Below are positions 6,913-48,222 of a stretch of DNA of 64,000 bases, one piece after another. The position numbers were made by a program, and so were the translations under genes. The notes beneath the pieces are model-generated. The model ran no database searches, had not been told where the DNA came from, and saw nothing but the letters and a program-made list of their open reading frames with translations. Positions within the stretch are counted from its first letter, which is position 1. Every line of letters starts with the position of its first letter. The DNA is from an uncultured archaeon (GTDB taxonomy: Archaea; Aenigmatarchaeota; Aenigmatarchaeia; PWEA01; JAGHBM01), in contig CAZXFI010000001.1 in NCBI GenBank assembly GCA_964640225.1, forward strand, positions 51,507 through 115,506. Direction: 5' to 3'.

Positions 6913-7353
6913 ATGCCCTCAACTGAATCCCTGATGGAGATGTTCGCGACTCTGATACTTTTCGCGCTGATAGCCATGCTACTTCTCACCGTTTTCGGCA
7001 AAACCGTGGGAGGAGGGGAAGTTCCCATGGGCCAGGCTTACCCGGTGACTCAGAAAATCGTGTTCAGGATTAACACAATGTCGGCGAGTCTGCAGAACGA
7101 GACAGCGATACTTAAGATAGACCCCTTCCAGTACAACATAACTTTTGACGTTAACAACAACTACGTGGAAAGCAAAGTCAAGTATTTCGGCGATACAAAG
7201 TACGGACTTTTCCTTTTTCCGGACATAAGCCTAATTGCCCCGGACTACATAGACTGTCCCCACGGCGAATGCCTGCCCAAGAACCTTGTCATAGAAAAGA
7301 AAGTTTATGAAGACGGTCCTGTTGAGATAACGGTCTGGGAGGAGATAATATGA
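6913..7353 (+). CDS. N-terminally membrane-anchored or pilin-like secreted protein
   Basis: N-terminal helix MFATLILFALIAMLLLTVFGKTV followed by a soluble domain containing a CPHGEC motif. Lies inside the pilin-like gene array. Confidence 0.45.
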   Translation: MPSTESLMEMFATLILFALIAMLLLTVFGKTVGGGEVPMGQAYPVTQKIVFRINTMSASLQNETAILKIDPFQYNITFDVNNNYVESKVKYFGDTKYGLFLFPDISLIAPDYIDCPHGECLPKNLVIEKKVYEDGPVEITVWEEII

Positions 7354-8580: not shown

Positions 8581-10079
8581 CTGGTAGAAAAGGCATTGCC
8601 ATAGGAATAGCCCTTTTGATAGGATTTTTCTTGGCAATGGGAGGCATTCTCCTGGCAATACTCGGCTTCACGCTGGGCCTGACCCAGGCAATAACCATGG
8701 AAACTGCATACGACGCCAAAACCCTCATAGAGGACAAGCTCCATTTTGACTCGGAAAGGCACTACCTTGAGAACGGGCTCTGGGTCGCCGGGGCTTACGC
8801 CGCCTTCAAGAACGGGGAAAACGGGGGCATATACAACGACGGGTGGGACACCTGCTCCGGCTACGTTTGCTGGAGGGACCACGACGACCTGAAAATACCA
8901 CCGGAGAATCAGGTAACTGACGAGGTTTTTGAAAGAACCGACGACACCTTTCAGGATTATTTTTCAAACACGGAGTACACCGTGATGGAAGAAACTCCTT
9001 TGGGGGAGCCGGATATAACCCCGCTGGAAATGGAATACGACAGGCAGGAATTCAGTTTTTCCTACAGGATAGCCGAGCTGAACCTTTCCGGCGATTCATA
9101 CGACCAGTCGCACGAAATGAGGGAGAGACGCGTCTGGATTAACACCACAATTCCCATCAGGTACCTCAGCCTTTACGATGACGCCTCCGGCTTTGCCACG
9201 AACTCGCGCACAAGGCTCAACGACAAGGTAATAGACGCGCTGGACGACGTGACCGTGTGCAAGGGCCAGGGCCAGCTCACGCAGAGCGCCGCGCAGAACA
9301 AGATTCAGGACGCTCTTGACGGAATAGCGGGAGACGAAACAAACGGATTTGAGTGGGAACTGCAGCTGCTTCAGATAGACGACTTTGAGGAAGTACAGGG
9401 CCCGCCCAACCTGAGGTACAGGATAGTTTTCACGGTTCTCGTTACCGTGAGGGACAAGGAGGACGGAAGGAGGGTTCCGAACACCGACAGCGTGGAGAAG
9501 CTGGGAATTAGGTTTGCTTTGAAAGATGAGATAGTCTTTGATAGGGTTGTTTACCAGATATGCGACTGCGGGGTGGAGTGCACGGGCCAGTCCAAATGCC
9601 AGGGCGAGACCATACCCGCGGACACATGCGACGGTAGCGTCAGGGTGATATGGAGGGTTGAAGGGACCACCACGAGCGAGGCCCCGGGAGACTGCTCCTC
9701 CGGAGACGACTGCTACTGCGAGAAGAGGATTGAATGCGCTCCGGCACCTTGCTGCGTGGATGTTTGCTGCGCCGCGGGCGAGTCGTGCTGCGGAGGCACC
9801 ACCTGCTGTGGCAATGCCTGTTGTGGAGGGACGTGCTGTGGAGCAGGGGACTTCTGCTGTGACGACAAGTGCTGCAGCGGCGATTCCTGCTGCGGTACCA
9901 CGTGCTGCTCAAGCACCTGCTGCGACGGGAACTCGTGCTGCACGGACACGTGCATCGGCGGCTCCTGTGTGGACTGCGGAGGCTGCAGTTGCGCACCAAT
10001 GGGCCCGTGCCAGTTCGGTACATGCCCGCTTGCATGCTGCCCCGGCTGCATAGGAATATGCTGTGCCCCTGGGCCTTAA
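8577..10079 (+). CDS. Large secreted pilin-like protein (class III signal MTGRKG-IAIGIALLIGFF) with an extreme C-terminal CC-dipeptide repeat domain
   Basis: 500 aa. The C-terminal roughly 110 residues read CCVDVCCAAGESCCGGTTCCGNACCGGTCCGAGDFCCDDKCCSGDSCCGTTCCSSTCCDGNSCC. The DNA shows TGCTGC recurring about every 21 nt. Confidence 0.6.
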   Translation: MTGRKGIAIGIALLIGFFLAMGGILLAILGFTLGLTQAITMETAYDAKTLIEDKLHFDSERHYLENGLWVAGAYAAFKNGENGGIYNDGWDTCSGYVCWRDHDDLKIPPENQVTDEVFERTDDTFQDYFSNTEYTVMEETPLGEPDITPLEMEYDRQEFSFSYRIAELNLSGDSYDQSHEMRERRVWINTTIPIRYLSLYDDASGFATNSRTRLNDKVIDALDDVTVCKGQGQLTQSAAQNKIQDALDGIAGDETNGFEWELQLLQIDDFEEVQGPPNLRYRIVFTVLVTVRDKEDGRRVPNTDSVEKLGIRFALKDEIVFDRVVYQICDCGVECTGQSKCQGETIPADTCDGSVRVIWRVEGTTTSEAPGDCSSGDDCYCEKRIECAPAPCCVDVCCAAGESCCGGTTCCGNACCGGTCCGAGDFCCDDKCCSGDSCCGTTCCSSTCCDGNSCCTDTCIGGSCVDCGGCSCAPMGPCQFGTCPLACCPGCIGICCAPGP

Positions 10080-10095
10080 GAGGTGAAAAGGGAAA

Positions 10096-10683
10096 ATGAA
10101 AGGAGACATATCCCCGTGGGTCTTGATAACGATAATAATAGTCTTCATAGCCCTGGGAATCACGCTTGTCGCGCTTTACCAGGCCAGGCTCCAGGAGGGA
10201 GTAGATGAGGCCATAACGGAAACGGACATACCGGTTGCTGGTGACGATGAACTTTCAACTTGCACGGACAGCGACGGGGGCAGAAATTATTTTACCGAGG
10301 GCAGTGTTACCACGTACACGGAAACTTATGACGACGAATGTGACTCGGGGCAGGCCACGGAACACCTGTGCCTGACGGTCATGGACGAGGTAGACACGGT
10401 TACCTATGTTTGCCCCAACGGCTGCGACGGGAACGCATGCAGCGACACACCCCATGTACTAGACGAATGCGAGGACAGTGACGGGGGCAAAAACTACTTT
10501 GCCCAAGGCACGGTGACTCTGGGCCCGGAAATCTACCAGGACGAGTGCAAGCCTATAGGAGACCAGAGTGTCCTAGTGAAGGAATACTTCTGTGAAAAGG
10601 AGGAGGACAACCCGGTTGAAGTGAAGTATACCATTTACCAATGTCCTATTCTTTGTGAAGGAGGGGCTTGCTTAGAGGGTTGA
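10096..10683 (+). CDS. Secreted protein with class III signal (MKG-DISPWVLITIIIVFIAL) and two tandem Cys-containing repeats of about 60 aa with a C-[TE]-DSDGG-[RK]-NYF motif
   Basis: The repeats CTDSDGGRNYFTEG...CPNGCDGNAC and CEDSDGGKNYFAQG...CPILCEGGAC are visible in the translation. Confidence 0.55.
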   Translation: MKGDISPWVLITIIIVFIALGITLVALYQARLQEGVDEAITETDIPVAGDDELSTCTDSDGGRNYFTEGSVTTYTETYDDECDSGQATEHLCLTVMDEVDTVTYVCPNGCDGNACSDTPHVLDECEDSDGGKNYFAQGTVTLGPEIYQDECKPIGDQSVLVKEYFCEKEEDNPVEVKYTIYQCPILCEGGACLEG

Positions 10684-10687
10684 TAAA

Positions 10688-11068
10688 ATGAGTAAGGGAG
10701 TTTCATTCTGGGTCATGATAACCATAGTTGCCGTTCTTATACTGCTGGTGGTTATAGCTTCAGGACTGGTCAACCTCAACCCCCAGGGAAGGATAGATGA
10801 CACAATGGGAGAGGTTGAAATCAAAGGGGCATGCGACCATTTTCAATGCCCGCAGGGCTCTTGTTGCAAGGAAGGTGGGGGAACAGACTACCAGACCAGG
10901 CAGTGCATAAAGAACGACACGGAAAGCTTAAGAGACACCTGTACTGACGCCACCGGTGAGAGGCTTGGCTCAACCTACGTAAAGGAATATTATTGCGATG
11001 GGAATATCATAAGGGCAGACATACACTACTGCGGCACGAACAGTTGCATGAACGGAGCCTGCACCTGA
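10688..11068 (+). CDS. Small secreted Cys-rich protein with class III signal (MSKG-VSFWVMITIVAVLIL), related to the C-terminal repeat of the upstream gene
   Basis: KEYYCDGN...YCGTNSCMNGACT resembles KEYFCEKEED...YQCPILCEGGACLEG of 10096..10683. Confidence 0.5.
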   Translation: MSKGVSFWVMITIVAVLILLVVIASGLVNLNPQGRIDDTMGEVEIKGACDHFQCPQGSCCKEGGGTDYQTRQCIKNDTESLRDTCTDATGERLGSTYVKEYYCDGNIIRADIHYCGTNSCMNGACT

Positions 11069-11104
11069 TTGAGCAAGAATTTAAATGATTAAGATGAAAT
11101 CTTA

Positions 11105-12553
11105 TTGTGGTTAATGATGGCAAGCGTGATTTTCCGGATAATCGCCATAATAGCCGCTCTTATTGTTCTCAGCATAGCCATAATTTTCATGCTCGGCCTT
11201 CCGATGGAAGAATCGGCCGAGGTGCTTCGGCAGGAGCAGATTGACCAGCAGGTGGACAAATTGTGCCCCTCCTCCAGGCAGTCGCCTACCATGGTTTTTC
11301 TTCAGCTAAACGGCGACTGCGGGCGGTGTGAAAACCCCGGTCCGCCCCCCTGCAACCCGTTCTGCAACGACGCCTCAGCCTGGTACCAAGTCTGCCAAGA
11401 TGAAAGGCCCGACGGAGAGGTAACTGTGGCAGATTATTGGCAATGTGACGCTCCGGAGGGGGGTAGTTGTATGGTTACCAAGATATCATACTACCAGTGG
11501 GTATACAACGGATGCCGTTTATCAAGAATCAATCCCATACTTGGTTTCAACGATTACAGGATTTACAAGGGCACGGACCCCACGGGCGACCTGGACTTTG
11601 AAGAATGGGACAACTGCAGCGAAGGCTATGGAATGGGCTCCAGGTGGTGGGATTTATTCTGTGCCGATGACGAATGCAAATACATCTCAAGCGTGAGTCC
11701 AATCCTGGACAATAAAGGAGTTTACGGGGAGGGACAAGACTTGTATTTCTCTATAAATTTTGTCACTGCTATAAAAGACCCGTACGACAGACTGCTTAAT
11801 CCCGAATACGGCATCTGCGAGGGAACTGTCTGCAAAAGGCATGAAGAGGAGTTCCACCACTATGAACTGAAAGTAGCGGGAAGGTACTGCTGCCCTGAGG
11901 GCACGGAGTGGAACACGGACTTCCAGGCATGCTGCGGGGAGGATGACTGCGCGGACGCCGACTGCAGGGAAATCGGGGGCACCTGGCTCTACGGTGAATG
12001 CTGGTTCATGGGAAGCGGCGGGGAAAGCTGCAGCGAGGTTTGCGAGGACAAAAACGCGGTGTGCAAGAATCCGGATGACTGGGCGAGCGTGCCGAAAGAC
12101 TGCGCGCTTCACGAGGAGGTTTTCAAGGACATGGGACTTTATCCCGTGCCGTTTAACTGCACTTTTTGCCTTCAGAACATGCTGCCTCCGCCAGAATGGT
12201 ATTCCCCGTATTCAGGCTCCCTGACAAAATGCTATTACAAAAACAACGAGGCCCCGCCACCCTTTGACGATTACATGTGCGACGCGGTGGCTCCGGGAGG
12301 CAAGCCCAGAATCTGCGCCTGCGAGCCCCTTTGCCCCGGGCCGGACCTGAACGGCCGCGTTCCCGCTCCCAGTTATTTTGCCGGGACGTGCCAGGGCGGG
12401 TGCCACGGCGATTATTACTACCACACGGGCTATGGAAGGTGTTACTGGGACTACCTGGGGCACGCGGAAAACGACCCGTGGGGCGAATCATGCATATGGA
12501 GACATTCGGCGGACTGCGCCGAGGCCCAGTGCACGGCCGCGGGCTGCATCTGA
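11105..12553 (+). CDS. Large N-terminally anchored extracellular Cys-rich protein (paralog A)
   Basis: N-terminal helix IFRIIAIIAALIVLSIAIIFMLGL. About 40 Cys. Shares blocks with 12567..13976 (CCPEGTEWNTDFQACCGEDDC, GECWFMGSGGESCSEVCED, CALHEE, RICACEPLCPG). Confidence 0.55.
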   Translation: MWLMMASVIFRIIAIIAALIVLSIAIIFMLGLPMEESAEVLRQEQIDQQVDKLCPSSRQSPTMVFLQLNGDCGRCENPGPPPCNPFCNDASAWYQVCQDERPDGEVTVADYWQCDAPEGGSCMVTKISYYQWVYNGCRLSRINPILGFNDYRIYKGTDPTGDLDFEEWDNCSEGYGMGSRWWDLFCADDECKYISSVSPILDNKGVYGEGQDLYFSINFVTAIKDPYDRLLNPEYGICEGTVCKRHEEEFHHYELKVAGRYCCPEGTEWNTDFQACCGEDDCADADCREIGGTWLYGECWFMGSGGESCSEVCEDKNAVCKNPDDWASVPKDCALHEEVFKDMGLYPVPFNCTFCLQNMLPPPEWYSPYSGSLTKCYYKNNEAPPPFDDYMCDAVAPGGKPRICACEPLCPGPDLNGRVPAPSYFAGTCQGGCHGDYYYHTGYGRCYWDYLGHAENDPWGESCIWRHSADCAEAQCTAAGCI

Positions 12554-12566
12554 TGCGGTGAAAAAG

Positions 12567-13976
12567 ATGAGCAAGGAAAATTTTTTCGGTGTGTTGATAA
12601 CAATCGTGATAATGCTTTTGGTTCTCGTGATAATAACCGGAAGCCTGTCCAACGTGGACTCCCTGGGGAAGACAGACGAGGCCATGGAGCAGTCCATGGG
12701 GCTTGCCGACACCTTCAAGGTGCCCTACACCCTGTGCGGCGACGGAAGGATGTCCGGGGGCTACCAGAGGACCATTGACACCGCGGGCGAGGCTACCGTC
12801 TTTTTCAGGGAACTGAGCGGGACTTTTGACTGCTCCCTGGAAGGCACCGGCGAGGGGGAGTGCATAATATACGGGCTTTACAGGAGAGAGTGGTGCGCAG
12901 ACGGCGGGTTCCTTTGCGGGAACGGCAACGGGGAGAACATAGGCACCTACCAGTTCACCGTGGACTCAGGGGAACCGGAGCTTGCCCTTGACTTCACCCC
13001 GGAATGCGTGGACAACGTCAATGTCCAGGGCTGCTGCGTAAATCCGAAAAAGGGAGACGGAAGGGACTGGCTCTGCGACTGGTGGATTTACGAGTGGACT
13101 TATTACGGAGACAAGGGATTCCTCAACATAACCGTGGGAAACGGGGAAAGCGTGGATGTCTGGAGCAGGTTCGCCGACAAGTGGGAAGGAGGCGCGGTGG
13201 AGGACCCGCACAACTGCAGCTACGGGGGCGACATGTACCAGTTCCACAAGGAAAGCTACAAGTACAAGAATGGGGAGCTGGCCGTCAGATACGTAAAATG
13301 CTGTCCCAATGGTTACACGTGGAACGATAATTATAAAACATGCTGCTATGACGAGGCCTGCACCAACTACCTGTGCAGATACCCGGCCTTTTTCATGTTC
13401 GGGACCTGCTGGATGGTTAGCGAACCCGGGGAAAGCTGCGAGCAGGCCTGCCTGAGAACGGGAAAGACCTGCAGCCTTGAAGCGCTTGAGAACGCGATTT
13501 CTGAAGGCCTGGAAGACAACTGCGACCTGCACGCGGAGGCCGGCTACGCATGCGCAAACTGCAACGAGGCCACGGGATCGGAAAACACGCTTGCCCCGTA
13601 CTTTGACCCCCCCGGCGACTGCTACTATTACAGCGAGGCCGAGGCCGCGGCAAACCCGTTTGACTGCGGGACATCGGACCCGGGCCTGAACAGGATATGC
13701 CCCTGCAAGCTCACCGGAAAAACCGGTGAAGATTATAAATGCGACCATCTGGTCCACGAGCCCGGAACCTGCATGGACGAGGACGGGGGGCTTGTCTGGG
13801 ACGTGGCTGCCTGCGTGATAAACGACAGTTATTCGTGGAGGGACCAGTGCCATGACCCCGGCACGGGAGCCAGCGTGCCGGAGAGCAATACTTTAAGAGA
13901 GCATTTCTGCGGCTCCGGTGACGTTATAGGAACACAGCTCCATTCCTGTGCGTGCAGAGACGGGACCTGCGTCTAG
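12567..13976 (+). CDS. Large N-terminally anchored extracellular Cys-rich protein (paralog B); start taken at ATG 12567 rather than the 12378 track start
   Basis: MSKENFFGVLITIVIMLLVLVIITGSL helix. Shares blocks with paralog A (CCPNGYTWNDNYKTCCYDEAC, GTCWMVSEPGESCEQACLRTGKTC, CDLHAE, RICPCKLTG). The 12378 extension overlaps the upstream gene. Confidence 0.55.
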   Translation: MSKENFFGVLITIVIMLLVLVIITGSLSNVDSLGKTDEAMEQSMGLADTFKVPYTLCGDGRMSGGYQRTIDTAGEATVFFRELSGTFDCSLEGTGEGECIIYGLYRREWCADGGFLCGNGNGENIGTYQFTVDSGEPELALDFTPECVDNVNVQGCCVNPKKGDGRDWLCDWWIYEWTYYGDKGFLNITVGNGESVDVWSRFADKWEGGAVEDPHNCSYGGDMYQFHKESYKYKNGELAVRYVKCCPNGYTWNDNYKTCCYDEACTNYLCRYPAFFMFGTCWMVSEPGESCEQACLRTGKTCSLEALENAISEGLEDNCDLHAEAGYACANCNEATGSENTLAPYFDPPGDCYYYSEAEAAANPFDCGTSDPGLNRICPCKLTGKTGEDYKCDHLVHEPGTCMDEDGGLVWDVAACVINDSYSWRDQCHDPGTGASVPESNTLREHFCGSGDVIGTQLHSCACRDGTCV

Positions 13977-28260: not shown

Positions 28261-29688
28261 ATGAGCGAAGAGCTTGGAATGACTTTCAAGAAAAAGAACT
28301 TCAATGAGTGGTATCTGGAGGCCATAAAAAAGGCCGGTATGGCCGATTACTCCCCGGTATCCGGGTGCATGGTGATAAGGCCTTACACCTACAGGATATG
28401 GGAGAGAATCCAGGCCCTCCTAAACGAAAGGTTTGACAGGCTGGGCGTAAAGAACGCCTACTTCCCCGTTTTCATACCCGAGCGGCTCCTAAAGAAGGAG
28501 GAGGAGCATGTGGAAGGCTTCACCCCCGAGGTCGCCTGGGTGACGGAGACAGGCTCTTCCAAGCTGGAGGAAAGGCTGGCTGTAAGGCCCACATCCGAGA
28601 CAATCATGTACGATTCCTACTCCAGGTGGATACGCTCCTGGAGAGACCTGCCCCTGAAAATCAACCAGTGGGTCAACGTAGTCCGCTGGGAGTTCAAGCA
28701 CCCGATACTTTTCCTCAGGAGCCGAGAATTCCTGTGGCAAGAGGGGCACACGGCTTACGCTGACAAGGAGGACGCGGAAAAGGAGGTTCTGGAAATCCTG
28801 GAGGTTTACAGGGAGGTTGTTGAAGACTACATGGCCATACCCTCGGTGAAGGGGAGGAAGTCGGAAAAGGAGAAATTCGCTGGCGGAGAGTACACCGTGA
28901 CGCTGGAGCACCTGCTTCCCAACGGCAAAGCCATACAGGGGCCCGATTCCCACCACCTGGGGCAGAATTTCTCAAAGGTTTTTGATGTCAAGTTCCTGGA
29001 CAGGAACGAGAAGGAAGAATACGTGTGGCAGAACTCGTGGGGATTCTCCACCCGCCAGCTGGGAATAATGTTCGCGGTGCACGGCGACGACAAGGGGCTT
29101 GTAATACCTCCCAAGGTAGCCCCGGTGCAGGTGGTTATAATCCCCATTTACAGGGAAGACACCAAAAAGGAAGTCCTGAAACAGGCCGGCAAAATCCGGG
29201 ACTCCCTTGCAAAAAAATTTTTAACAGAGTTGGACGACAGGGACTGGTACACCCCGGGTTTCAAGTTCAACGAATGGGAACTGAAAGGGGTGCCCCTGAG
29301 GATAGAGATAGGGCCGAAGGACATGAAAAAGGGGCAGGCGATTCTTGTAAGAAGAGATACCGGGGAAAAGAAGGCCGTCGGTACCAAGGATTTGGCAAAG
29401 GAAACGAAGAAAACGCTTGACTCGGTGCAGAAAAGCCTGTTTGAAAAGGCCCGGAAATTCATGGAAGAACACACAAAAGAAGTTGAGAATTATGACGGGC
29501 TGAAGAAGAACCTGGAAGGAAACTGGATAATCGCCCCGTGGTGCGGTTCCGTCTCATGTGAGGAAAAGGTGAAGGACGAAACAGGGGCCAAAATCACCAA
29601 CATACCCTTCGGTCTCAAGGCAAAGGGAAAATGCGTTGTATGCGGGAAAAAGGCCGGGCACGCGGCCTGCTTCGGAAAGAGCTACTAG
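28261..29688 (+). CDS. proS: Prolyl-tRNA synthetase (archaeal/eukaryotic type)
   Basis: 475 aa class II aaRS. FPVFIPE, RPTSET, FLRSREFLWQEGHTA and a C-terminal Zn-binding segment CGSVSCEE...CVVCGK. Confidence 0.9.
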   Translation: MSEELGMTFKKKNFNEWYLEAIKKAGMADYSPVSGCMVIRPYTYRIWERIQALLNERFDRLGVKNAYFPVFIPERLLKKEEEHVEGFTPEVAWVTETGSSKLEERLAVRPTSETIMYDSYSRWIRSWRDLPLKINQWVNVVRWEFKHPILFLRSREFLWQEGHTAYADKEDAEKEVLEILEVYREVVEDYMAIPSVKGRKSEKEKFAGGEYTVTLEHLLPNGKAIQGPDSHHLGQNFSKVFDVKFLDRNEKEEYVWQNSWGFSTRQLGIMFAVHGDDKGLVIPPKVAPVQVVIIPIYREDTKKEVLKQAGKIRDSLAKKFLTELDDRDWYTPGFKFNEWELKGVPLRIEIGPKDMKKGQAILVRRDTGEKKAVGTKDLAKETKKTLDSVQKSLFEKARKFMEEHTKEVENYDGLKKNLEGNWIIAPWCGSVSCEEKVKDETGAKITNIPFGLKAKGKCVVCGKKAGHAACFGKSY

Positions 29689-31064
29689 TCAAATGGATTT
29701 TCCCCTGTTATGCACATGGTGCAAAGATGTTTTTTCGGCAAACCCACCGCCCTGACCACGTTCTCAACTGTGTTGTAATATACCTTGTTTATGGAGGGCA
29801 GATTCCCGGCCACTTCTTCGCCTATTTCAAACACATCCCTGTATTCCATGCCGCCTGCGGCCAGCTTCTTGTTGAATTCATCCGAATGGCAGGAATAGAA
29901 TATCGGGGCATAGCTTACCAGAAGCTCAACCTCCTTGGCTCCCGCGTTCAGAAGCGTCCTTGACACGGCCTCGCTTATGGTGCCCCTTACAACGCTGTCG
30001 TCCCCGAACATGACTTTTTTTCCTCTAACCACTTCTTTTATGGGGTTGTGCTTCAACGTGGCGGCCTGAACCCTTTCACTGGGGTCCGGTATTATGTACG
30101 TGCGACCTATGTACTGGTTCTTTATCAGCCCCTCGTCAAGAGGCATTCCAGTTGCCTCGTGCACTCCCAGTGCCACAGACCTGCCTGAATCCGGTATGCC
30201 TATAATAACCTTGTCTTTATTCTTCCTTATGCCGTGCAAATCCACCAGCAAATGCCCGAGTTTTTTTCTGACCGTGTGGGAGGTCTTTCCCTCAATAACC
30301 GCGTCTGGCCTTGCGGTGTAAACCCACTCAAAAACGCAGTGCCTCCTCTCCGAAGGCAAGGCCTGTTTCTTGTAAAAATCCTGGTCAAAGCCGATGATTT
30401 CTCCCGGAACAACATCCCTCCTTTCTATAAACTCTTCCCCGAAATTCTCAAACATGTCAATTGATCCGGACTCCGAGGCAACGTAAAGGGAATCCTTTGT
30501 CCTTCCAATGTACATGGGCCTCACTCCTCTCTTGTCCCTTCCCCCGATAAGCTGGCTCCTCTGTTCCTTCTTGTCCCTTACCCCCATGACAAAGGAAAAA
30601 TACGCCCTGTCAAGCTCTTTCATTGTATCGGCAAGAGAATCCTTTATGTCGCCGTATTGTTCGGTTTTTTCCAGAAAAAGCCTTCCGAAAATTTCCTCAT
30701 CGGTGGAAGCCCTGAACCCGTGATCTTTGTTTACTTCCCCGCGGTTCAGAACAAAACCGTTTATTGATACGGAAATTTCGTAATTTTCATTCTCAGAGAT
30801 TGTGGGGGGTATGTCCTTTCTTTCAACTTTTTCGCTCCCCAGGTGGCCCACGGCCACATAGTCGGTTGGGTGAATGAAAGACTTGAAGAGTTCTTCATGG
30901 AATACCTTTGATATAAGCCTCTTTCCCTTGTAAGTCCTTAGCGAATGGTTTCCCATGGCGGAAATTCCCACGTTTTCCTGCCCACGGTGCTGGGTCTGGA
31001 AAAGAGCCTGGTGGGCATAAATGCTGGCATTATCCTTGGAGTAGATACCCACGATTCCGGACAT
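29685..31064 (-). CDS. purF: Amidophosphoribosyltransferase-like (PurF family); Ser encoded where the catalytic Cys1 is expected
   Basis: MSGIVGIYS N-terminus (Ntn glutaminase fold). PRTase motif VIIGIPDSGRSVALG. 459 aa. Confidence 0.75.
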   Translation of the reverse strand: MSGIVGIYSKDNASIYAHQALFQTQHRGQENVGISAMGNHSLRTYKGKRLISKVFHEELFKSFIHPTDYVAVGHLGSEKVERKDIPPTISENENYEISVSINGFVLNRGEVNKDHGFRASTDEEIFGRLFLEKTEQYGDIKDSLADTMKELDRAYFSFVMGVRDKKEQRSQLIGGRDKRGVRPMYIGRTKDSLYVASESGSIDMFENFGEEFIERRDVVPGEIIGFDQDFYKKQALPSERRHCVFEWVYTARPDAVIEGKTSHTVRKKLGHLLVDLHGIRKNKDKVIIGIPDSGRSVALGVHEATGMPLDEGLIKNQYIGRTYIIPDPSERVQAATLKHNPIKEVVRGKKVMFGDDSVVRGTISEAVSRTLLNAGAKEVELLVSYAPIFYSCHSDEFNKKLAAGGMEYRDVFEIGEEVAGNLPSINKVYYNTVENVVRAVGLPKKHLCTMCITGENPFD

Positions 31065-31121
31065 ATAAGATAGGAGGCCCTGAAAACATTTAAACCTTTA
31101 CTCCACAAAACTTATTTCATG

Positions 31122-31324
31122 GGCCCGTGGCGTAACCGGATAACGCGCTCGGCTTCGGACAAGCTTTTTAGAAAAAAGCTTGAGCAAAAACACGGAAACA
31201 GGGGAAACCGAGAGACTGGGGGTTCGAAAACAAAAACCTTTTGGAAAAAGGTTCTTGTATCTCCAAAACCTGGAAACGCAAAGCGTTTCCCAGTGGGGAA
31301 CGAAATTCCCTCCGGGCTCACCAA
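31122..31324 (+). tRNA. tRNA-Arg(TCG) with two introns (anticodon loop 31161-31208 and T-loop about 31230-31307); CCA encoded
   Basis: Hand-folded. Acceptor GGGCCCG/CGGGCTC, D-stem GCGT/ACGC, anticodon stem CTCGG/CCGAG with loop CTTCGGA, T-stem GGGGG/CCCTC with loop TTCGAA-T. Confidence 0.6.
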
Positions 31325-31485
31325 CAAATCCTTTTTTAGAAAAAGGCTTTGTAATTTGGAACAAGGTTCCAAGATTCCCAAAAACCTGGAAAAGCCCTGC
31401 TTTTCCCAAATAAAACGTTTAAAAGCATTTGAAAACACAAAATAAAGGTAAGTTGAAGCACATGAAATGTGCTTATTTTCAATTT

Positions 31486-31653
31486 GCTCCCATAGTCTAG
31501 TGGCCAAAACTCAAGGAGTTTTGTACTCCAGCAATAATGCTGAAGTGGCCAAGGATGCTGGCCTCTCGTAAGCTTTTTGGGAAAAAGCTTAAGCAAAAAC
31601 CAAAAGCTTTAAGAAAGCCAGAGACCGGGGTTCAAATCCCCGTGGGAGCACCA
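31486..31653 (+). tRNA. tRNA-Glu(CTC) with two introns (D-loop about 31508-31552 flanked by duplicated AGTGGCCAA; anticodon loop 31570-31616); CCA encoded
   Basis: Hand-folded. Acceptor GCTCCCA/TGGGAGC, anticodon stem CTGGC/GCCAG with loop CTCTCGT, T-arm CGGGG-TTCAAAT-CCCCG. Confidence 0.65.
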
Positions 31654-31677: not shown

Positions 31678-33468
31678 CTAATCTCCGGCCCACTTCCAAC
31701 TCTTAGAGCCCTGGGAGCCAAGCCCGAACAAATTCAATGCCTTGTTAAAGAAATCAACTATTGTGTTGTAGAACTCGTCCAATGGATTATAGCTTTTTTC
31801 AGAATATCCCACTCCGCCTCCTCCACCGCCCCCGCCACTGCCTCCGGATGTGGTTGTAGTGGTTGATTCGGATAGGGACGTAGTGGTGAACGTGGAGGTA
31901 GAAGTTGTGGAAGAAACGATCGTAGTTTCAACAGTAGTTGTCTCTGCGGTAGAAGAGGAAGACGTAAAGACAGTAGACGTGGAAGAGGTAGTTGTGCATA
32001 TTGTGGTGGTGGAACCTCCAGACAATGGCGCGAGCGAGGGTCCAAGATCGCCCGGAGCGCCGGTTTTTCTTTCACTGTACCACTGGTTCCATGTCCTGTA
32101 TCCGGTGTTTACCCCGTCTGTATCAAAAACCTGCACGGTGCCTCTACGATTTAAACCGCCTATGGATTTAACCCCCATTCCAACTATTTCATTTAATCCG
32201 TCATTGTCAATGTCCTGGACTATCATCTGGTTCAAATAAACATTCAAATCCTGTTTTATATCAAAATCATGGGCGCCCGGATTCCACTGGTAAATGACCA
32301 ACCAGCCCCGGTTTAATCCGCTGGTAAATCCTATAAGCTCCATTTCATTGCCATTTCCGTTTTGCCACACGTTCCCAATGGCAAGAGGGTGGCTGTAACC
32401 AACTCCGCTTGCAGCCCAAACAGGGGAGTAATCCTCCATTTTCCAGTCTCCCAAATCAAAAATATCAGCGCCACTGTTTTTGTTGTTGTCGCCGCTAATC
32501 AGTTCAAGATTGCCGTCTCCGTCAATGTCGTAGACATTGTTATTGTCATGGGCGCCGAAATTTGGTATATTCTCCTGCCACTTTCCAGTCATCGGAGACA
32601 TTGTTGAGCCGTCGACAACGCCTATACCGTCACCGGCCTGGTCTGTTATTACCACATCTAAAACTCCGTCACCGTCAACATCCACTATTGTTGAACAGTG
32701 ACTGCTGCAATATATGGATTTCCATGCATGCATTATGTTCAAACTACTGTCCAGTTGCATCAAACCGTTGCAACTATCACCGCCACTGCCTCCCCTGTCT
32801 GTGTCAAATATTTCAACAGTCCCGTCACCATCCAAATCCCAGCCTGTAAATCCCCCGTGGCAAGTGTGGCAGGCGACCGGCTCCGATTCTATTATTGCAC
32901 CGTCCGTGCCCCTGAATTTCATTACCGGAGAAACGGCACCGTTGCCTGACACGTAAATGTAAACTGTTCCGGCCTCCTTTAAAAGCAGGGGGTGCTTGTC
33001 TTTTCTCCCGTGGGTGGTTGGATTGTTGTGATTGGGGTCATTCCAGTAATCCCATTTCATAGTGCCTGATTCGGCCTCAAACACCGCGACCTGGTTCATA
33101 CCGCATGCGACCAGCTCAAGCTTCCCGTCCTGGTCCACATCGCCAAGTTCCACGACGGTATGACGGCCCAAACCGTTGCTTGTATAAACCCATTCCAAAG
33201 CCCCTGTCTGCCCATCCAAGCATATCACGAAACCTGGATGCGGCTCGCCGCTTCCTGCATCTGTTCCACCGGCCTGGAATATTTCGTGGTATCCATCGCC
33301 GTCCACATCCGCAGTAACAGGCAACGTGCTGCTGCTGTACGAAGAGGACAATCCTGTATGCACAGACGTGTCTGTATACCACTTTAGAGAAATGTCTGCA
33401 TTTACAGGAACTGCCATGAAAACAATCATAACAACAGGAAGTAGCTTGAGATATCTCGTTTGCCGCAC
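31678..33468 (-). CDS. Secreted FG-GAP/beta-propeller repeat protein with C-terminal Ser/Thr-rich stalk
   Basis: N-terminal signal peptide LLPVVMIVFMAVPVNA. At least six D-x-D-G-D-G FG-GAP-type calcium-binding motifs. Near the C-terminus a roughly 60-residue S/T run, then GGSGGGGGGGG. Confidence 0.7.
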   Translation of the reverse strand: MRQTRYLKLLPVVMIVFMAVPVNADISLKWYTDTSVHTGLSSSYSSSTLPVTADVDGDGYHEIFQAGGTDAGSGEPHPGFVICLDGQTGALEWVYTSNGLGRHTVVELGDVDQDGKLELVACGMNQVAVFEAESGTMKWDYWNDPNHNNPTTHGRKDKHPLLLKEAGTVYIYVSGNGAVSPVMKFRGTDGAIIESEPVACHTCHGGFTGWDLDGDGTVEIFDTDRGGSGGDSCNGLMQLDSSLNIMHAWKSIYCSSHCSTIVDVDGDGVLDVVITDQAGDGIGVVDGSTMSPMTGKWQENIPNFGAHDNNNVYDIDGDGNLELISGDNNKNSGADIFDLGDWKMEDYSPVWAASGVGYSHPLAIGNVWQNGNGNEMELIGFTSGLNRGWLVIYQWNPGAHDFDIKQDLNVYLNQMIVQDIDNDGLNEIVGMGVKSIGGLNRRGTVQVFDTDGVNTGYRTWNQWYSERKTGAPGDLGPSLAPLSGGSTTTICTTTSSTSTVFTSSSSTAETTTVETTIVSSTTSTSTFTTTSLSESTTTTTSGGSGGGGGGGGVGYSEKSYNPLDEFYNTIVDFFNKALNLFGLGSQGSKSWKWAGD

Positions 33469-41951: not shown

Positions 41952-42548
41952 TTATTTCTTCCTGGCCTTTTTGGACTTGGGTTTTTTCTTTTTCCCAAGC
42001 CTGACCAGCTTCTTAAGCTTTTTCTTTTTCCTTTCCTTTCTTTTTTCCATTCTCATCTCCCTTACGACCCTGCTCCTCTCAAGAAGTATTATGGTCAGCC
42101 TGCTAATCTTGTAGCGGAAAAACAGGTATATTGAAAAATATAGTACAAGGAATCCTGCAAAAGAAAGCGCCATGTAGGAGTAGTTGAATTTCGTGACGAA
42201 GGTGAGAAATATGGCGCCCAGAGAATACACGGTCAGGGCTATGGCAATCGTGTTCCCCTTGTTCTCCAGGTACTCCTCCCTCAGCTCCCTGTACTCGTTT
42301 ACCTGCTCCATTTTTCCCAGTTCCCTTGAGACTTCCTCGTTCGTGTGGAGAGGCTTGCCCCTTTTTACAAAGCCCGTAATGAGTATCTCCGCCAGAAGTA
42401 CCACTACCGCGGTCTCTATGAAAGTCCAGCCGTTTGAATTCAGGAAAAGAACCACAAGGAAAACTGCGAGAACCATGTAGAAGACCAGAAAATTGAATAT
42501 CTTCCTTTCCCTTGATACAAGCTCCTCTATTCTCCCTATCCCCACCAT
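41952..42548 (-). CDS. Polytopic membrane protein with poly-basic C-terminal tail
   Basis: Four hydrophobic helices. The C-terminus is KRKERKKKKLKKLVRLGKKKKPKSKKARKK. Confidence 0.4.
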   Translation of the reverse strand: MVGIGRIEELVSRERKIFNFLVFYMVLAVFLVVLFLNSNGWTFIETAVVVLLAEILITGFVKRGKPLHTNEEVSRELGKMEQVNEYRELREEYLENKGNTIAIALTVYSLGAIFLTFVTKFNYSYMALSFAGFLVLYFSIYLFFRYKISRLTIILLERSRVVREMRMEKRKERKKKKLKKLVRLGKKKKPKSKKARKK

Positions 42549-42579
42549 GAATAAAATAGGTTTTTTGGCTTTAAAAGCA

Positions 42580-42981
42580 TTAGATTCTGTCAGCGAATAT
42601 GTATTTTTTCTTTACCACAAAGGCCGCGAGCAGGCACAGAATAAACTGGGCCACGTAAAGCATAAAATTCTGCAGGTTGAATATCTGGGACTCCAAAAAA
42701 ATGAAAAGCACGCCGTAATCCATGAGGATATGTATTATTATGAATACTATGCCGAAGGCCGGGCCCTCAAGCCACTCAAACCTCTTTATCTTTCTCATGT
42801 ATACGAAGGCGGCCGCGAAAGTCCCTGCCGCCGCGAAAACCATGTAGTTGTGCATCCACAGCTCGGTGCTTCCCATCAGGGACAGGGTGAGAACCGCCTC
42901 CAGAAATATGAAGAGCCATACCAAAACCGCCAGAAGTATGGCAAGGCCCCAGTTGCTGAGGAATTTCCTCTCTTCTATCAT
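42580..42981 (-). CDS. Small polytopic membrane protein
   Basis: 133 aa with four hydrophobic segments. ORF track. Confidence 0.4.
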   Translation of the reverse strand: MIEERKFLSNWGLAILLAVLVWLFIFLEAVLTLSLMGSTELWMHNYMVFAAAGTFAAAFVYMRKIKRFEWLEGPAFGIVFIIIHILMDYGVLFIFLESQIFNLQNFMLYVAQFILCLLAAFVVKKKYIFADRI

Positions 42982-43045
42982 ATTGATATTATAGGGAGAT
43001 AGACTTAAAAAGTTTTTAAATGTATTGTGCCATAACTATAGTTAT

Positions 43046-43285
43046 GCGGGGGTGTCCGAGTAAGTTTTTAGAAAAAGCTTAAGCAAAAACTAAAAGCTTC
43101 GGGAATGGCCAAAACTGAAGTTTTGAACCCCGCCGGCAGACCGGCAAGGTGGCCAGAGGAGCAAGGTTGAGGGCCTTGTGGCTTAGTGCCTTCGCGAGTT
43201 CAAATCGGTCGACATGCACGAAGTGTATGTCCGTGCGTAGCACGTAAGGCGGAAGCCTACCGTGGAGTTCTCGTCCCCCGCACCA
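43046..43285 (+). tRNA. tRNA-Leu(GAG), type II, with two introns (D-loop 43061-43149; T-loop 43206-43269); CCA encoded
   Basis: Hand-folded. Acceptor GCGGGGG/CCCCCGC. D-arm TCC-GAG[intron]TGGCCAGA-GGA. Anticodon stem CAAGG/CCTTG with loop TTGAGGG. Variable arm GGC-TTAGT-GCC. T-stem GCGAG/CTCGT with loop TTCAAAT. Confidence 0.55.
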
Positions 43286-47168: not shown

Positions 47169-47579
47169 TTACCCTCCTTTATCGGGATTTTCAAAATCTT
47201 CCAGCGTGCGCTCCCCGAAGAACTTCCTCTTGGCCGCCTTCATGGTGCCGCTCACCCCGAGCGTGTAGGGTATAACCCTGGTGTCGCCTATCCTTTCTAT
47301 AAGCGCAAGCGCGGCTCTCACGTACTCCACGTAGTTGTTGTCGCACCTTATGAGCCCTCTCTGGTTGGCCTCATCCCAGCTGTCGCTTACAAACCATATG
47401 TTGGCCTCCGAGGCCCCCAGCTCCCCGACCAAATTGAGCAGGGAATGCCAGAAGGCGTTTAGAATGTCGCCGAAATTGATTTTTTCCTGGCTTATTATCT
47501 CAAAGGCCAGGTACCTCTTCTTTTCCCTGAGAGTCGGGGGAAGGATTTTGGTCCGGTCAGCCACCCGCACCACCTGCAA
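47169..47579 (-). CDS. rnp2: RNase P protein subunit Pop5 (Rnp2)
   Basis: LREKKRYLAFEIIS is the Pop5 signature N-terminus. About 130 aa. Adjacent to the Rpp30 gene. Confidence 0.7.
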   Translation of the reverse strand: MQVVRVADRTKILPPTLREKKRYLAFEIISQEKINFGDILNAFWHSLLNLVGELGASEANIWFVSDSWDEANQRGLIRCDNNYVEYVRAALALIERIGDTRVIPYTLGVSGTMKAAKRKFFGERTLEDFENPDKGG

Positions 47580-48222
47580 TCATTTTAGGCACGTCGGACA
47601 CGGATTTCATTGACTCCTCAAGCCCCATGCCAAGCACCTGCCCCAAGGCCGCGAGCTCCCTCGGGTCCCTCATGTCCCATTTGCTTCTTGAAGCCGAGGT
47701 TATGACCACGGGAGCCCTGTATTTCCTGGCAAGCTCTATGTTGAGCCTCATGTGGCTCAGAACGAAGGACCTTACCTTTTTGAAAGTCTCAAGAACCTCG
47801 TGGAAGTTTATTTCTATCGCCACGTTGTTTTCCATGCAGAACCTTGCTATCACGTGGTCAACGCCCGAATCAGACCTCCTGTACTCCGGGTGCGAGAGAA
47901 GCGAAACGCGGGAATCCTCCGAGGCGGCACGGTTTATCTTGTATTCCCCGCCCGAAACTATTATAAATTTTGAATGCTTCCCGGCCTTGGTCAAGGACCT
48001 CTTCATCTCCTTGACCCCGTCGGCCTCAACCTCTATTCCCGGCACTATCTTCAGGTTCTTCACGGAACGGGCCATTTCGCTTATTTTCCTGAACCTGTCC
48101 AGGTTTGCGTATTTCTCTACAAGGCCTATTCCGGAATATCCGAGCCTCTTGGCGGTTTCCACTACCTCGTCAAACTCTTCCAGGTTGTCTAGATGTATGT
48201 TTAAATCGTAAAAGTCCATCAA
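47557..48222 (-). CDS. rnp3: RNase P protein subunit Rpp30 (Rnp3), TIM/PHP-like barrel
   Basis: MMDFYDLNIHL start and about 220 aa, typical of archaeal Rpp30. Overlaps the Pop5 start by 23 nt. Confidence 0.7.
   Translation of the reverse strand: MMDFYDLNIHLDNLEEFDEVVETAKRLGYSGIGLVEKYANLDRFRKISEMARSVKNLKIVPGIEVEADGVKEMKRSLTKAGKHSKFIIVSGGEYKINRAASEDSRVSLLSHPEYRRSDSGVDHVIARFCMENNVAIEINFHEVLETFKKVRSFVLSHMRLNIELARKYRAPVVITSASRSKWDMRDPRELAALGQVLGMGLEESMKSVSDVPKMIAGGAGG

What the first reader, a model, noticed from the sequence alone, without database searches (positions are those of the whole stretch)
31122..31653. Two adjacent tRNA genes (Arg-TCG, Glu-CTC) each split by two introns, including D-loop and T-loop positions
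Hand-folding gives complete cloverleaves only after removing two insertions per gene. tRNA-Arg has an anticodon-loop intron of about 48 nt and a T-loop intron of about 78 nt. tRNA-Glu has a D-loop intron of about 45 nt flanked by a 9-nt duplication AGTGGCCAA, and an anticodon-loop intron of 47 nt. Both encode CCA. Multiple introns at non-canonical positions are a hallmark of Thermoproteales and a few other archaeal lineages. Automated finders often miss or mis-call such genes. The six-frame track fills this region with spurious ORFs.
Basis: seen in the sequence. Interest (0 to 1): 0.6.

Follow-up and report, generated by a model that had tools for sequence, protein, structure and literature searches.

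The report
Multi-intron tRNA genes, DPANN archaeon
The flagged stretch really holds two archaeal tRNA genes (Arg and Glu), each broken by two short protein-spliced introns. A third tRNA (Leu) 12 kb away carries three more, and the introns are built from reusable hairpin cassettes, one of which recurs letter for letter in distant archaea.

Summary
Confirmed. tRNA-Glu(CTC) is 31486-31653, with introns of 45 nt (D-loop 21/22) and 47 nt (37/38). ARAGORN and Rfam find nothing on the raw DNA. After in-silico splicing, ARAGORN calls both.

Three syntenic relatives carry the same gene pair with nearly identical exons, compensatory stem changes across exons, and different intron sets. One relative lacks the T-loop and D-loop introns, which fixes the boundaries. 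Every junction sits in a bulge-helix-bulge or relaxed motif.

The genome is a DPANN archaeon close to Aenigmarchaeota, not Thermoproteales. Disrupted tRNA genes are already documented in DPANN, so this is a new member of a known kind.

Extras:
- A third gene, tRNA-Leu(GAG) at 43046-43285, has three introns.
- The introns fall into sequence families shared between tRNAs and between positions.
- One 29-nt hairpin core has 85 exact copies in five DPANN lineages and Methanosarcina. Some sit in tRNA introns; others start at the TAA stop codon of protein genes.

This suggests a portable hairpin element that seeds introns. That idea is inference, not shown.

The parts
31087..31096 (+). TATA-box-like promoter element (CATTTAAACC) of tRNA-Arg; TTTAAA lies 26-31 nt upstream of G1
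   Evidence: Sequence. The same GATTTAAAC element sits 27-33 nt upstream of G1 in L003, L004 and L007. Promoter function is inferred.
31121..31158 (+). tRNA-Arg(TCG) exon 1 (positions 1-37)
31159..31206 (+). tRNA-Arg intron 1, 48 nt, canonical 37/38; family F1. Hairpin 31160-31169/31173-31182 plus tail AGCAAAAAC.
   Evidence: BHB check: H 4/4 (CUUC/GGGG, two G-U), h 5/5, bulges GG|A and AA|A. CM hit of 57.6 bits.
31207..31228 (+). tRNA-Arg exon 2 (positions 38-59)
31229..31306 (+). tRNA-Arg intron 2, 78 nt, T-loop 59/60; family F4. Positions 31239-31292 are paralogous to the Arg-Glu spacer.
   Evidence: H 4/4 Watson-Crick (TTCG/CGAA), h 5/5 (the T-stem). Absent in L007. Alignment to the spacer scores 42 against a shuffle maximum of 34, 0/1000.
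31307..31323 (+). tRNA-Arg exon 3 (positions 60-76, encoded CCA at 31321-31323)
31324..31352 (+). Trailer hairpin directly after CCA (ACAAATCCTTTTTTAGAAAAAGGCTTTGT) with a T6 run at 31332-31337; probable terminator of tRNA-Arg
   Evidence: Inverted repeat I5. Partial CM hit. An equivalent hairpin follows CCA in L004 and L007; L003 has the same start, but its contig ends inside the element. Terminator role is inferred.
31354..31408 (+). Spacer segment paralogous to the Arg T-loop intron
31417..31426 (+). TATA-box-like element (GTTTAAAAGC) upstream of tRNA-Glu
   Evidence: Sequence. Conserved in L004 and L007. Inferred.
31456..31474 (+). Hairpin in the tRNA-Glu 5' leader (AAGCACAT GAA ATGTGCTT), part of about 24 nt that the relatives lack
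31486..31507 (+). tRNA-Glu(CTC) exon 1 (positions 1-21)
31508..31552 (+). tRNA-Glu intron 1, 45 nt, D-loop/D-stem junction 21/22; family F3. It ends with a copy of exon bases AGTGGCCAA.
   Evidence: Of 10 equivalent junctions, only 31507|31552 gives H 4/4 (GGCC/GGCC), with bulges AA|A and AA|G and h' of 3 bp. Absent in L004, L007 and L010.
31553..31568 (+). tRNA-Glu exon 2 (positions 22-37)
31569..31615 (+). tRNA-Glu intron 2, 47 nt, canonical 37/38; family F1. Hairpin 31569-31578/31582-31591, tail AGCAAAAAC, then AAAAGCTT, which can pair with the 5' arm.
   Evidence: h 5/5, h' 8/8, H only 2/4, so a relaxed motif. CM hit of 55.9 bits. 28/31 identical to the Arg intron core.
31616..31653 (+). 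tRNA-Glu exon 3 (positions 38-76, encoded CCA)
43046..43285 (+). Third disrupted gene, tRNA-Leu(GAG). Exons 43046-43060, 43106-43112, 43157-43204, 43269-43285. Introns 43061-43105 (45 nt, D-loop 15/16, family F1), 43113-43156 (44 nt, D-loop after GGCCAA, family F3), 43205-43268 (64 nt, T-loop 59/60, family F2).
   Evidence: CM hit at 43060-43091. Sequence. ARAGORN calls the spliced 87-nt tRNA-Leu(gag). H is 4/4 at all three junctions, h' is 10 bp for intron 1, and intron 3 is a strict hBHBh'.

Best explanation
These are functional archaeal tRNA genes whose primary transcripts carry several short protein-spliced introns.

Proposed pathway:
- Each gene is transcribed from its own TATA-type promoter.
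- RNase P trims the 5' leader. Two RNase P protein subunits, Pop5 and Rpp30, are encoded in this window.
- At each exon-intron junction the RNA folds into a bulge-helix-bulge motif or a relaxed form of it. Four exon bases upstream of the 5' splice site pair with four bases near the intron's 3' end. This helix is flanked by two 3-nt bulges.
- The tRNA splicing endonuclease (EndA) cuts after the second base of each bulge.
- An RtcB-type ligase joins the exons. CCA is already encoded.

In the T-loop and anticodon-loop introns, the tRNA's own 5-bp stem supplies the outer helix. On the intron side, a hairpin that starts 1-3 nt after the 5' splice site, or a long-range pairing of its 5' arm, supplies the other helix.

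Shown here: exon structure, boundaries, conservation, compensatory changes and motif geometry. Inferred: the enzymes and the actual splicing.
For: - Spliced sequences give canonical cloverleaves with correct anticodon loops and TTCRAAT T-loops.
- The same Arg-Glu pair sits next to PurF and ProRS in three relatives. Mature sequences are 70-75/77 identical for Arg, while intron content differs completely. L007: Arg has only a 13-nt 37/38 intron and Glu only a 37/38 intron. L004: Glu has a T-loop intron and no D-loop intron.
- Compensatory substitutions join bases that lie in different exons.
- The central helix is 4/4 at 6 of the 7 junctions in the window and 2/4 at the seventh, so 26 of 28 positions pair. 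Neighbouring alternative junctions score poorly.
- All 8 introns in the relatives also have H of 3-4/4. The outer helix h is 5/5 at seven junctions and 4/5 at the L003 Arg T-loop junction.
- The genome is archaeal: exosome, proteasome, SBDS, L15e, ABCE1, Trm1, RNase P proteins, Mre11/Rad50.
- It is closest to Aenigmarchaeota-labelled genomes.
- Heavy tRNA gene disruption and broad-specificity EndA variants are already reported for DPANN lineages (PMC5829648).
Against: - No EndA or RtcB gene lies in the 64-kb window, so the enzyme type is unknown.
- There are no RNA data.
- The Glu 37/38 intron has only 2 of 4 central-helix pairs.
- Unconstrained MFE folding reproduces the central helix for only 2 of 7 introns.
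- Two introns contain T5 runs and two contain T4 runs. T5 could cause some premature termination by archaeal RNA polymerase (my own knowledge).
Confidence: 0.9

Rival explanations
1. The genes are pseudogenes: tRNA genes inactivated by insertion of small mobile palindromic elements, with the 9-nt AGTGGCCAA repeat being a target-site duplication.
For: - The D-loop insert is flanked by a perfect 9-nt direct repeat.
- The insert families recur at other sites and outside tRNAs.
- One family sits in opposite orientations in the same tRNA-Arg T-loop in two relatives.
Against: - All three tRNA genes found in 64 kb are interrupted.
- Exons stay near-identical and co-vary across relatives.
- Every insert sits in a cleavable bulge-helix-bulge geometry. 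Random insertions would not do that.
- An insertion origin and present-day splicing are compatible.
Confidence: 0.04
2. The pieces are transcribed separately and joined in trans, as in Nanoarchaeum split tRNAs. The T-run hairpin at the start of the F1 introns ends the upstream piece.
For: - The F1 hairpin carries a T5 run.
- Elsewhere it starts exactly at stop codons of protein genes and right after a tRNA CCA end, as a 3'-end element would.
Against: - The introns are only 45-78 nt.
- They contain no TATA-like box at a suitable distance. The loop of the hairpin is GGG or CCA in many copies.
- Cis pairing explains every junction.
Confidence: 0.03
3. Chance resemblance or self-splicing (group I/II) introns.
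For: None beyond the failure of automated finders.
Against: - Conservation, compensatory changes and synteny.
- The introns are far too short for group I or II ribozymes.
- There is no Rfam intron hit.
Confidence: 0.01

Closest known systems
Archaeal bulge-helix-bulge tRNA introns at non-canonical positions, several per gene (Thermoproteales, Korarchaeota, Thaumarchaeota; reviewed in PMC4090602 and PMC4033280)
   Same: - Short introns in the D-, anticodon- and T-loops.
- hBHBh', hBH or HBh' motifs at the junctions.
- Two or three introns per gene.
- Genes missed by standard finders.
   Different: The host is a DPANN archaeon near Aenigmarchaeota, mesophile-like at about 50% GC, not a crenarchaeote. 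Two of the three T-loop introns and two of the three D-loop introns use a palindrome of the loop itself (TTCGAA, GGCC) for the central helix.
Disrupted tRNA genes of DPANN archaea with broad-specificity splicing endonucleases (ARMAN-2 epsilon2 EndA, PMC3239211; L3-loop alpha4 EndAs in Woese-/Pacearchaeota, PMC5829648)
   Same: Same superphylum and same phenomenon. That paper explicitly notes incomplete tRNA sets and undetected disrupted genes in DPANN.
   Different: The Aenigmarchaeota-like lineage was not among the genomes analysed there. The EndA type of this genome is unknown. The intron families and their cassettes were not described there.
tRNA intron transposition in Thermoproteales (Fujishima et al. 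2010, as cited in PMC4090602 and PMC4390854)
   Same: Near-identical intron sequences occur in different tRNAs and at different positions. Here F1 is at 37/38, 59/60 and the D-loop, and F2 is in the T-loop, the D-loop and leaders.
   Different: - One core (F1) is identical over 29 nt across several phyla and also lies outside tRNA genes, at stop codons of protein genes.
- One family occurs in both orientations at the same site.
- One intron is a paralogue of the gene's own downstream spacer.
REP or MITE-like palindromic extragenic elements of bacteria
   Same: For the F1 hairpin only: a short conserved palindrome, placed just after genes, sometimes in tandem arrays, with stem co-variation.
   Different: No associated transposase is known here. 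The element is strictly oriented relative to transcription and is also found inside spliced introns. The resemblance is a lead, not a test.

Membership tests
Archaeal BHB (protein-spliced) tRNA introns | Removing the insert restores a canonical cloverleaf tRNA | tested here: met
   ARAGORN calls Arg(tcg), Glu(ctc) and Leu(gag) after splicing. An intron-less T-loop and D-loop in relative L007 confirm the boundaries.
Archaeal BHB (protein-spliced) tRNA introns | Two 3-nt bulges separated by a 4-bp helix at the splice sites (strict), or one half of it (hBH / HBh') | tested here: met
   H is 4/4 at 6 of 7 junctions. The Glu 37/38 junction has H 2/4 but h 5/5 and h' 8/8. The Leu T-loop intron is a strict hBHBh'.
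Archaeal BHB (protein-spliced) tRNA introns | Archaeal host genome | tested here: met
   Exosome, proteasome, SBDS, L15e, ABCE1, Nre, and RNase P Pop5/Rpp30. Nearest named relatives are Aenigmarchaeota.
Archaeal BHB (protein-spliced) tRNA introns | Host encodes a splicing endonuclease able to cut non-canonical or relaxed motifs | not testable with these tools
   No tRNA_int_endo hit among 40 window ORFs scanned. The rest of the genome is not available.
Archaeal BHB (protein-spliced) tRNA introns | Splicing observed at the RNA level | not testable with these tools
   No transcript data.
Transposing / mobile tRNA intron families (Thermoproteales type) | Significant sequence similarity between introns at different positions or in different tRNAs | tested here: met
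   - Leu D-loop intron vs Glu 37/38 intron: 38/41 identical.
- Window Leu T-loop intron vs L003 Arg T-loop intron: 25/30 identical.
- Both 0/1000 shuffles.
- F1 sits at 37/38 in 18 tRNAs and at 59/60 in 5.
Split / trans-spliced tRNA genes | Pieces at separate loci or with their own promoters | tested here: not met
   The pieces are contiguous, 45-78 nt apart, with no TATA-like box inside the introns.
REP/MITE-like mobile palindromes (for the F1 cassette) | Many dispersed copies, extragenic placement, conserved palindrome | tested here: inconclusive
   - 85 exact and about 35 diverged copies in the loci fetched.
- 9 copies start at stop codons.
- Tandem arrays in Methanosarcina.
- 99.5% of stem cells pair, with changes on both sides at 4 pairs.
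- No transposase, no target-site rule and no empty-site pair were found.

The most novel reading that the evidence does not exclude
The introns are assembled from a small repertoire of portable hairpin cassettes that live both inside and outside tRNA genes.

F1:
- It is a 10-bp hairpin, NRAGCUUUUU-NNN-AAAAAGCUYN, plus the tail AGCAAAAA.
- It is identical over 29 nt in Aenigmarchaeota, Woesearchaeota, Nanoarchaeota, Iainarchaeum, Micrarchaeota and Methanosarcina.
- In tRNAs it begins 1-3 nt after the 5' splice site, where it provides the intron-side helix of the splice motif.
- In protein genes its first three bases are the TAA stop codon.
- In one locus (L074) an exact F1 copy follows what reads as a tRNA 3' end with CCA. 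In the window and relatives L004 and L007 a related, diverged T-run hairpin follows the tRNA-Arg CCA.

F2 is found in tRNA leaders, D-loops and T-loops, and in both orientations at one site.

The reading is that an oriented, terminator-like or REP-like element spreads within and between archaeal lineages. When it lands in a tRNA loop that contains a palindrome (GGCC, TTCGAA) or that can evolve a 4-nt match, it is at once tolerated as a spliceable intron. That would be a concrete mechanism for the gain of archaeal tRNA introns.
Probability: 0.3. Interest if true: 0.75.

Novelty: new member of a known kind. Interest (0 to 1): 0.5.

Why it matters
- Annotation. All three tRNA genes identified in this 64-kb stretch are invisible to ARAGORN and Rfam. 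Gene sets of such DPANN genomes will look tRNA-poor, and spurious ORFs get called over them.
- Evolution. One tRNA pair in four related genomes shows intron presence, absence, replacement and inversion.
- Evolution. One intron is copied from the gene's own spacer, and direct repeats that contain palindromes flank the loop introns. This gives unusually clean material for the old question of how archaeal tRNA introns arise and spread.
- If the F1 and F2 cassettes are mobile or functional RNA elements shared across phyla, they are an undescribed class. I found no match in Rfam 15 and no text hit for the sequence in the paper library.

Tried and rejected
- ARAGORN and Rfam on raw DNA found nothing. 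Rfam at E<=10 gave only noise plus a weak tmRNA-like hit over the Glu 3' part.
- A naive scan of the region for bulge-helix-bulge geometry is swamped by A/T-run pairings. It is only useful at fixed boundaries.
- Brute-force deletion plus ARAGORN, meant to classify the contexts of the 89 F1 copies, was too permissive and was dropped. ARAGORN intron mode mis-places introns.
- Unconstrained MFE folds form the acceptor stems and intron hairpins but show the 4-bp central helix for only 2 of 7 introns. This is not decisive either way.
- Synteny-based comparison stops working below about 60% PurF identity. The loci for P0006, P0010 and P0016 have no tRNA pair beside PurF.
- A search of JGI metagenomes for an intron-less allele of this exact Glu gene (spliced D-loop junction) found nothing.
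- F1 is absent from the viral contig collection.
- No paper in the library contains the F1 sequence; the only hits are cloning primers. Cluster look-up gave no organism names.
- No EndA was found in the window.
- Similarity of the two D-loop introns (F3) is weak, 36/1000 shuffles. I treat it as suggestive only.
- The idea that the F1 hairpin is an internal promoter was rejected because its loop is not T/A-only in many copies.
Full report
**1. The observation**

Locating the exon strings gives these coordinates.

tRNA-Arg(TCG):
- Exons 31121-31158, 31207-31228 and 31307-31323.
- Introns of 48 nt (31159-31206) and 78 nt (31229-31306).

tRNA-Glu(CTC):
- Exons 31486-31507, 31553-31568 and 31616-31653.
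- Introns of 45 nt (31508-31552) and 47 nt (31569-31615).

Both genes end in an encoded CCA.

ARAGORN finds no tRNA in the whole 64 kb. Rfam finds nothing at gathering thresholds and no tRNA hit even at E<=10 on the 700-base region. ARAGORN with introns allowed recovers the Glu span but mis-calls it as Leu(caa) with one 79-nt intron, and misses Arg. After the four segments are removed, ARAGORN calls tRNA-Arg(tcg) and tRNA-Glu(ctc) with complete cloverleaves. My first Arg splice left an 8-nt T-loop. Taking exon 3 from 31307 gives the normal TTCGAAT loop, as in the intron-less relative.

**2. Comparative evidence**

The neighbouring PurF-like protein (29685-31064, minus strand) has homologues at 78%, 66% and 61% identity. 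Their contigs (L003; L004-L006; L007-L009) keep the order Rad50-Mre11-ProRS-PurF and carry the same Arg-Glu pair upstream of PurF.

| Locus | tRNA-Arg introns | tRNA-Glu introns |
|---|---|---|
| L007 | 13 nt at 37/38; T-loop uninterrupted (GGGGGTTCGAATCCCTCC) | 42 nt at 37/38 only; D-loop uninterrupted |
| L004 | 45 nt at 37/38; 62 nt in T-loop | 65 nt at 37/38; 47 nt in T-loop; none in D-loop |
| L003 | 38 nt at 37/38; 46 nt in T-loop | contig ends before Glu |

- Mature Arg sequences are 70-75/77 identical between these genomes, while the introns are unalignable or absent.
- Window Glu differs from the L004/L007 Glu by paired changes: 7:66 is A-T vs G-C, and 50:64 is G-C vs C-G. Their two halves lie in different exons.

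This is the strongest evidence that the exons make one functional molecule and that the boundaries are right.

**3. Splice-motif geometry**

I used the standard archaeal rule, from established knowledge of the bulge-helix-bulge motif. Exon bases -6 to -3 pair with intron bases n-5 to n-2. The bulges are [e-2, e-1 | i1] and [i(n-1), i(n) | e+1]. I checked each fixed junction.

| Junction | Central helix H | Outer helix h | Intron-side helix h' | Bulges |
|---|---|---|---|---|
| Arg 37/38 | 4/4 (two G-U) | 5/5 | hairpin follows | GG\|A, AA\|A |
| Arg 59/60 | 4/4 Watson-Crick (TTCG/CGAA) | 5/5 (the T-stem) | hairpin follows | AA\|A, AT\|T |
| Glu 21/22 | 4/4 (GGCC/GGCC) | weak | 3 bp | AA\|A, AA\|G |
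| Glu 37/38 | 2/4 | 5/5 | 8/8 (AAGCTTTT/AAAAGCTT) | CG\|T, AA\|A |

For Glu 21/22, only one of the ten junctions allowed by the 9-nt repeat gives a helix at all. The Glu 37/38 junction is a relaxed motif.

Alternative junctions one or two bases away score poorly. All eight introns of the relatives show H of 3-4/4; h is 5/5 at seven junctions and 4/5 at the L003 Arg T-loop junction. The L004 Glu T-loop intron is a strict hBHBh' with h' 8/8. Position 59/60 of the T-loop is the structural twin of 37/38: the sixth/seventh base of a 7-nt loop on a 5-bp stem.

**4. A third gene**

A covariance model of the shared intron core (see section 6) hit a degenerate copy at 43060-43091. The surrounding sequence is tRNA-Leu(GAG) at 43046-43285 with three introns:
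- 45 nt after G15 in the D-loop;
- 44 nt after GGCCAA in the D-loop;
- 64 nt at T-loop 59/60.

The spliced 87-nt product is called tRNA-Leu(gag) by ARAGORN. H is 4/4 at all three junctions. An acceptor-stem/CCA scan of both strands found no further candidates with a T-arm. So the window holds three recognisable tRNA genes with seven introns, and none is visible to the finders.

**5. Organism and surroundings**

The window encodes:
- the archaeal proteasome alpha / SBDS / Rrp4 / Rrp41 / Rrp42 block;
- prefoldin, L15e, ABCE1, Nre and Trm1;
- a nucleotidyltransferase;
- RNase P subunits Pop5 and Rpp30, and Mre11/Rad50/ProRS.

ABCE1 is 77% identical to that of the 832,879-bp chromosome CP070662.1 ('archaeon bin779') and to an Aenigmarchaeota-labelled fragment. 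It is 52-59% identical to many proteins labelled Aenigmarchaeota. The nearest named PurF relatives are also Aenigmatarchaeota. The identical DNA occurs in assemblies of SRR7048225 and SRR7048220 and on a 220-kb NCBI contig.

This is therefore a DPANN archaeon, not a member of Thermoproteales. No splicing endonuclease gene lies in the window.

Conserved TATA-like boxes precede the genes:
- Arg at 31087-31096;
- Glu at 31417-31426;
- Leu at about 43012-43021, with TTTTTAAA 26-33 nt upstream of G1.

A hairpin with a T6 run follows the Arg CCA (31324-31352). An equivalent hairpin follows CCA in L004 and L007; L003 has the same start before its contig ends. Promoter and terminator roles are inferred.

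**6. Intron families**

| Family | Members | Evidence |
|---|---|---|
| F1 | Arg 37/38, Glu 37/38, Leu D-loop intron 1 | Arg and Glu cores 28/31 identical; Leu D-loop intron 38/41 identical to Glu 37/38 intron over almost its full length, score 58 vs shuffle maximum 35 |
| F2 | window Leu T-loop intron, L003 Arg T-loop intron, L004 Arg T-loop intron | window Leu vs L003 Arg 25/30; L003 vs L004 at 26/33 only in reverse complement, 0/1000 shuffles |
| F3 | the two D-loop introns after GGCCAA | share start AACT[CG]AAG and end GGCCA[AG]; weak, 36/1000 |
| F4 | Arg T-loop intron 31239-31292 | paralogue of the Arg-Glu spacer 31354-31408, score 42 vs shuffle maximum 34 |

For F2, the same element therefore lies in opposite orientations in the same loop of the same tRNA in two relatives.

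Full-length F1 introns are a constant 45-47 nt. They differ mainly in their last six bases, which are the 4-nt strand matching the local exon plus two bulge bases. Their 5' arm can pair either with the adjacent 3' arm, making a local hairpin, or with a downstream AAAGCT segment, making the h' helix of the splice motif.

**7. The F1 core elsewhere**

The pattern AGCTTTTTNNNAAAAAGCTYRAGCAAAAA has 85 exact matches in 76 loci of the species-representative genome collection. They lie in genomes labelled Aenigmatarchaeota, Woesearchaeota, Nanoarchaeota, Iainarchaeum, Micrarchaeota, uncultured archaeon or Methanosarcina. There are none in viral contigs. By my own arithmetic about 0.001 matches are expected by chance in 596 Gb.

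I counted contexts on 89 copies: these 85, two in the window and two in L004.
- At least 18 lie in tRNA introns at 37/38 and 5 at T-loop 59/60. H is 3-4/4, and the 8-bp core of the hairpin begins 2-5 nt after the 5' splice site, usually 2-3.
- One lies antisense in a tRNA-Ser intron, and one follows what reads as a tRNA 3' end with CCA.
- In nine loci the TAA stop codon of a real protein gene is the first three bases of the hairpin. These genes include thymidylate synthase, a radical-SAM protein, a CBS protein, GMP synthase (matched to the end of its C-terminal domain) and proteasome alpha.
- In Methanosarcina the element forms 56-59-nt tandem arrays at three conserved loci, including the isolate M. 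spelaei MC-15.

The two outer stem pairs co-vary: 80 of 89 copies are Watson-Crick at both. A model search over the loci fetched adds about 35 diverged full-length copies with compensated stems such as AAACTTTTT/AAAAAGTTT and AAGCCTTTT/AAAAGGCTT, many of them in further tRNA introns. In that alignment 99.5% of stem cells pair, and four pairs show changes on both sides.

The inner T/A pairs and the tail never vary. A splice-motif helix would not need that. So the element probably has an identity of its own, either a 3'-end or terminator-like signal or a mobile palindrome. This is inference.

The F2 hairpin GACGTGCACGAAGTGTACGTC occurs in metagenome contigs in two tRNA-Leu 5' leaders, one D-loop intron and one T-loop intron.

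Rfam has no family for these elements. The F1 sequence is not in the searchable literature.

**8. Comparison with what is known, and verdict**

These features are well known for Thermoproteales and some other archaea (PMC4090602, PMC4033280):
- multiple introns per gene;
- non-canonical positions;
- relaxed motifs;
- similar introns at different sites.

Kaneta et al. (PMC5829648) already reported increased tRNA gene disruption in DPANN lineages. They also suspected undetected disrupted genes there. The finding is therefore real and correctly interpreted, but it is a new member of a known kind.

What goes beyond the known picture:
- one tRNA pair across four genomes shows intron gain, loss, replacement and inversion;
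- one intron is copied from the gene's own spacer;
- loop palindromes are used for the central helix;
- a cross-phylum hairpin cassette is shared between introns and gene ends.

These are observations. The mobile-element explanation is a hypothesis, which I put at about 0.3.

Noticed in passing
window 43046-43285 (+): A third disrupted tRNA gene, tRNA-Leu(GAG), with three introns (45, 44 and 64 nt; two in the D-loop, one at T-loop 59/60). It is not detected by ARAGORN or Rfam, and a spurious ORF (42493-43002) ends just upstream of it.
   Followed up: yes
loci L010-L085 (genome collection); window 31160-31191, 31569-31600, 43061-43090: The 29-nt intron core AGCTTTTTNNNAAAAAGCTYRAGCAAAAA has 85 exact copies in five DPANN lineages and Methanosarcina. 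They occur in tRNA introns (37/38, 59/60, D-loop), starting at the TAA stop codon of nine protein genes, after what reads as a tRNA CCA end, and in 56-59-nt tandem arrays in Methanosarcina. It is not in Rfam or in the searchable literature.
   Followed up: partly
L003 (reverse strand of 1-330) and L004 (reverse strand of 9300-10250): The T-loop introns of tRNA-Arg in these two relatives are homologous only in reverse complement (26/33, 0/1000 shuffles). The same element sits in opposite orientations at the same site.
   Followed up: partly
L091 489-509, L092 3602-3622, L093 510-530, L094 165-185: The hairpin of intron family F2 (GACGTGCACGAAGTGTACGTC) lies in the 5' leaders of two tRNA-Leu genes, between the TATA box and G1. 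It also lies in a D-loop intron and in a T-loop intron of other tRNAs.
   Followed up: partly
L010, L067, L069 (one MAG, Aenigmatarchaeota RS_12_33): Three versions of tRNA-Glu(CTC) share the same F1 37/38 intron but differ in the T-loop: no intron in one, and two different inserts in the others. This is either several gene copies or strain-level intron polymorphism.
   Followed up: no
L012, L019, L042, L046, L047, L056, L058, L074: F1 is often followed by a second module, GGAGGCTA...(variable)...GCGCCTTCC, a long hairpin closed by GGAGGC/GCCTTCC. It occurs inside and outside tRNA introns, and its function is unknown.
   Followed up: no
L073 1900-2150 and 5750-6400: An Aenigmarchaeota contig has long T-loop introns made of several F1-like hairpin modules in tandem (GGAACTTTTAGAAAAAGTTCC ATCAAA, ACAAGCTTTTAAAAAAGCTTG AGCAAAAAAG and so on).
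   Followed up: no
L003, L005, L006, L008, L009 (contig ends): Several independent assemblies of relatives break within or just beyond the Arg-Glu tRNA locus. This suggests repeats or population heterogeneity there. L004 and L005 also differ immediately after the Glu CCA.
   Followed up: no
window 47169-48222 (-), 62605-63693 (+), 60598-61920 (+): tRNA-processing genes lie near the disrupted tRNAs: RNase P subunits Pop5 and Rpp30, Trm1 (m2,2G26 methyltransferase), and a 440-aa nucleotidyltransferase that could be the CCA-adding enzyme even though CCA is encoded in all three genes.
   Followed up: partly
window 3067-13976 (+): A run of about ten co-directional ORFs (126-699 aa) downstream of a T2SSE-type ATPase (728-3034) has no Pfam match at E<=1e-5.
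   Followed up: no
window 31678-33468 (-): The 596-aa FG-GAP-like protein next to tRNA-Glu ends in a long Ser/Thr-rich low-complexity tail followed by a Gly run. It looks like a surface protein.
   Followed up: no
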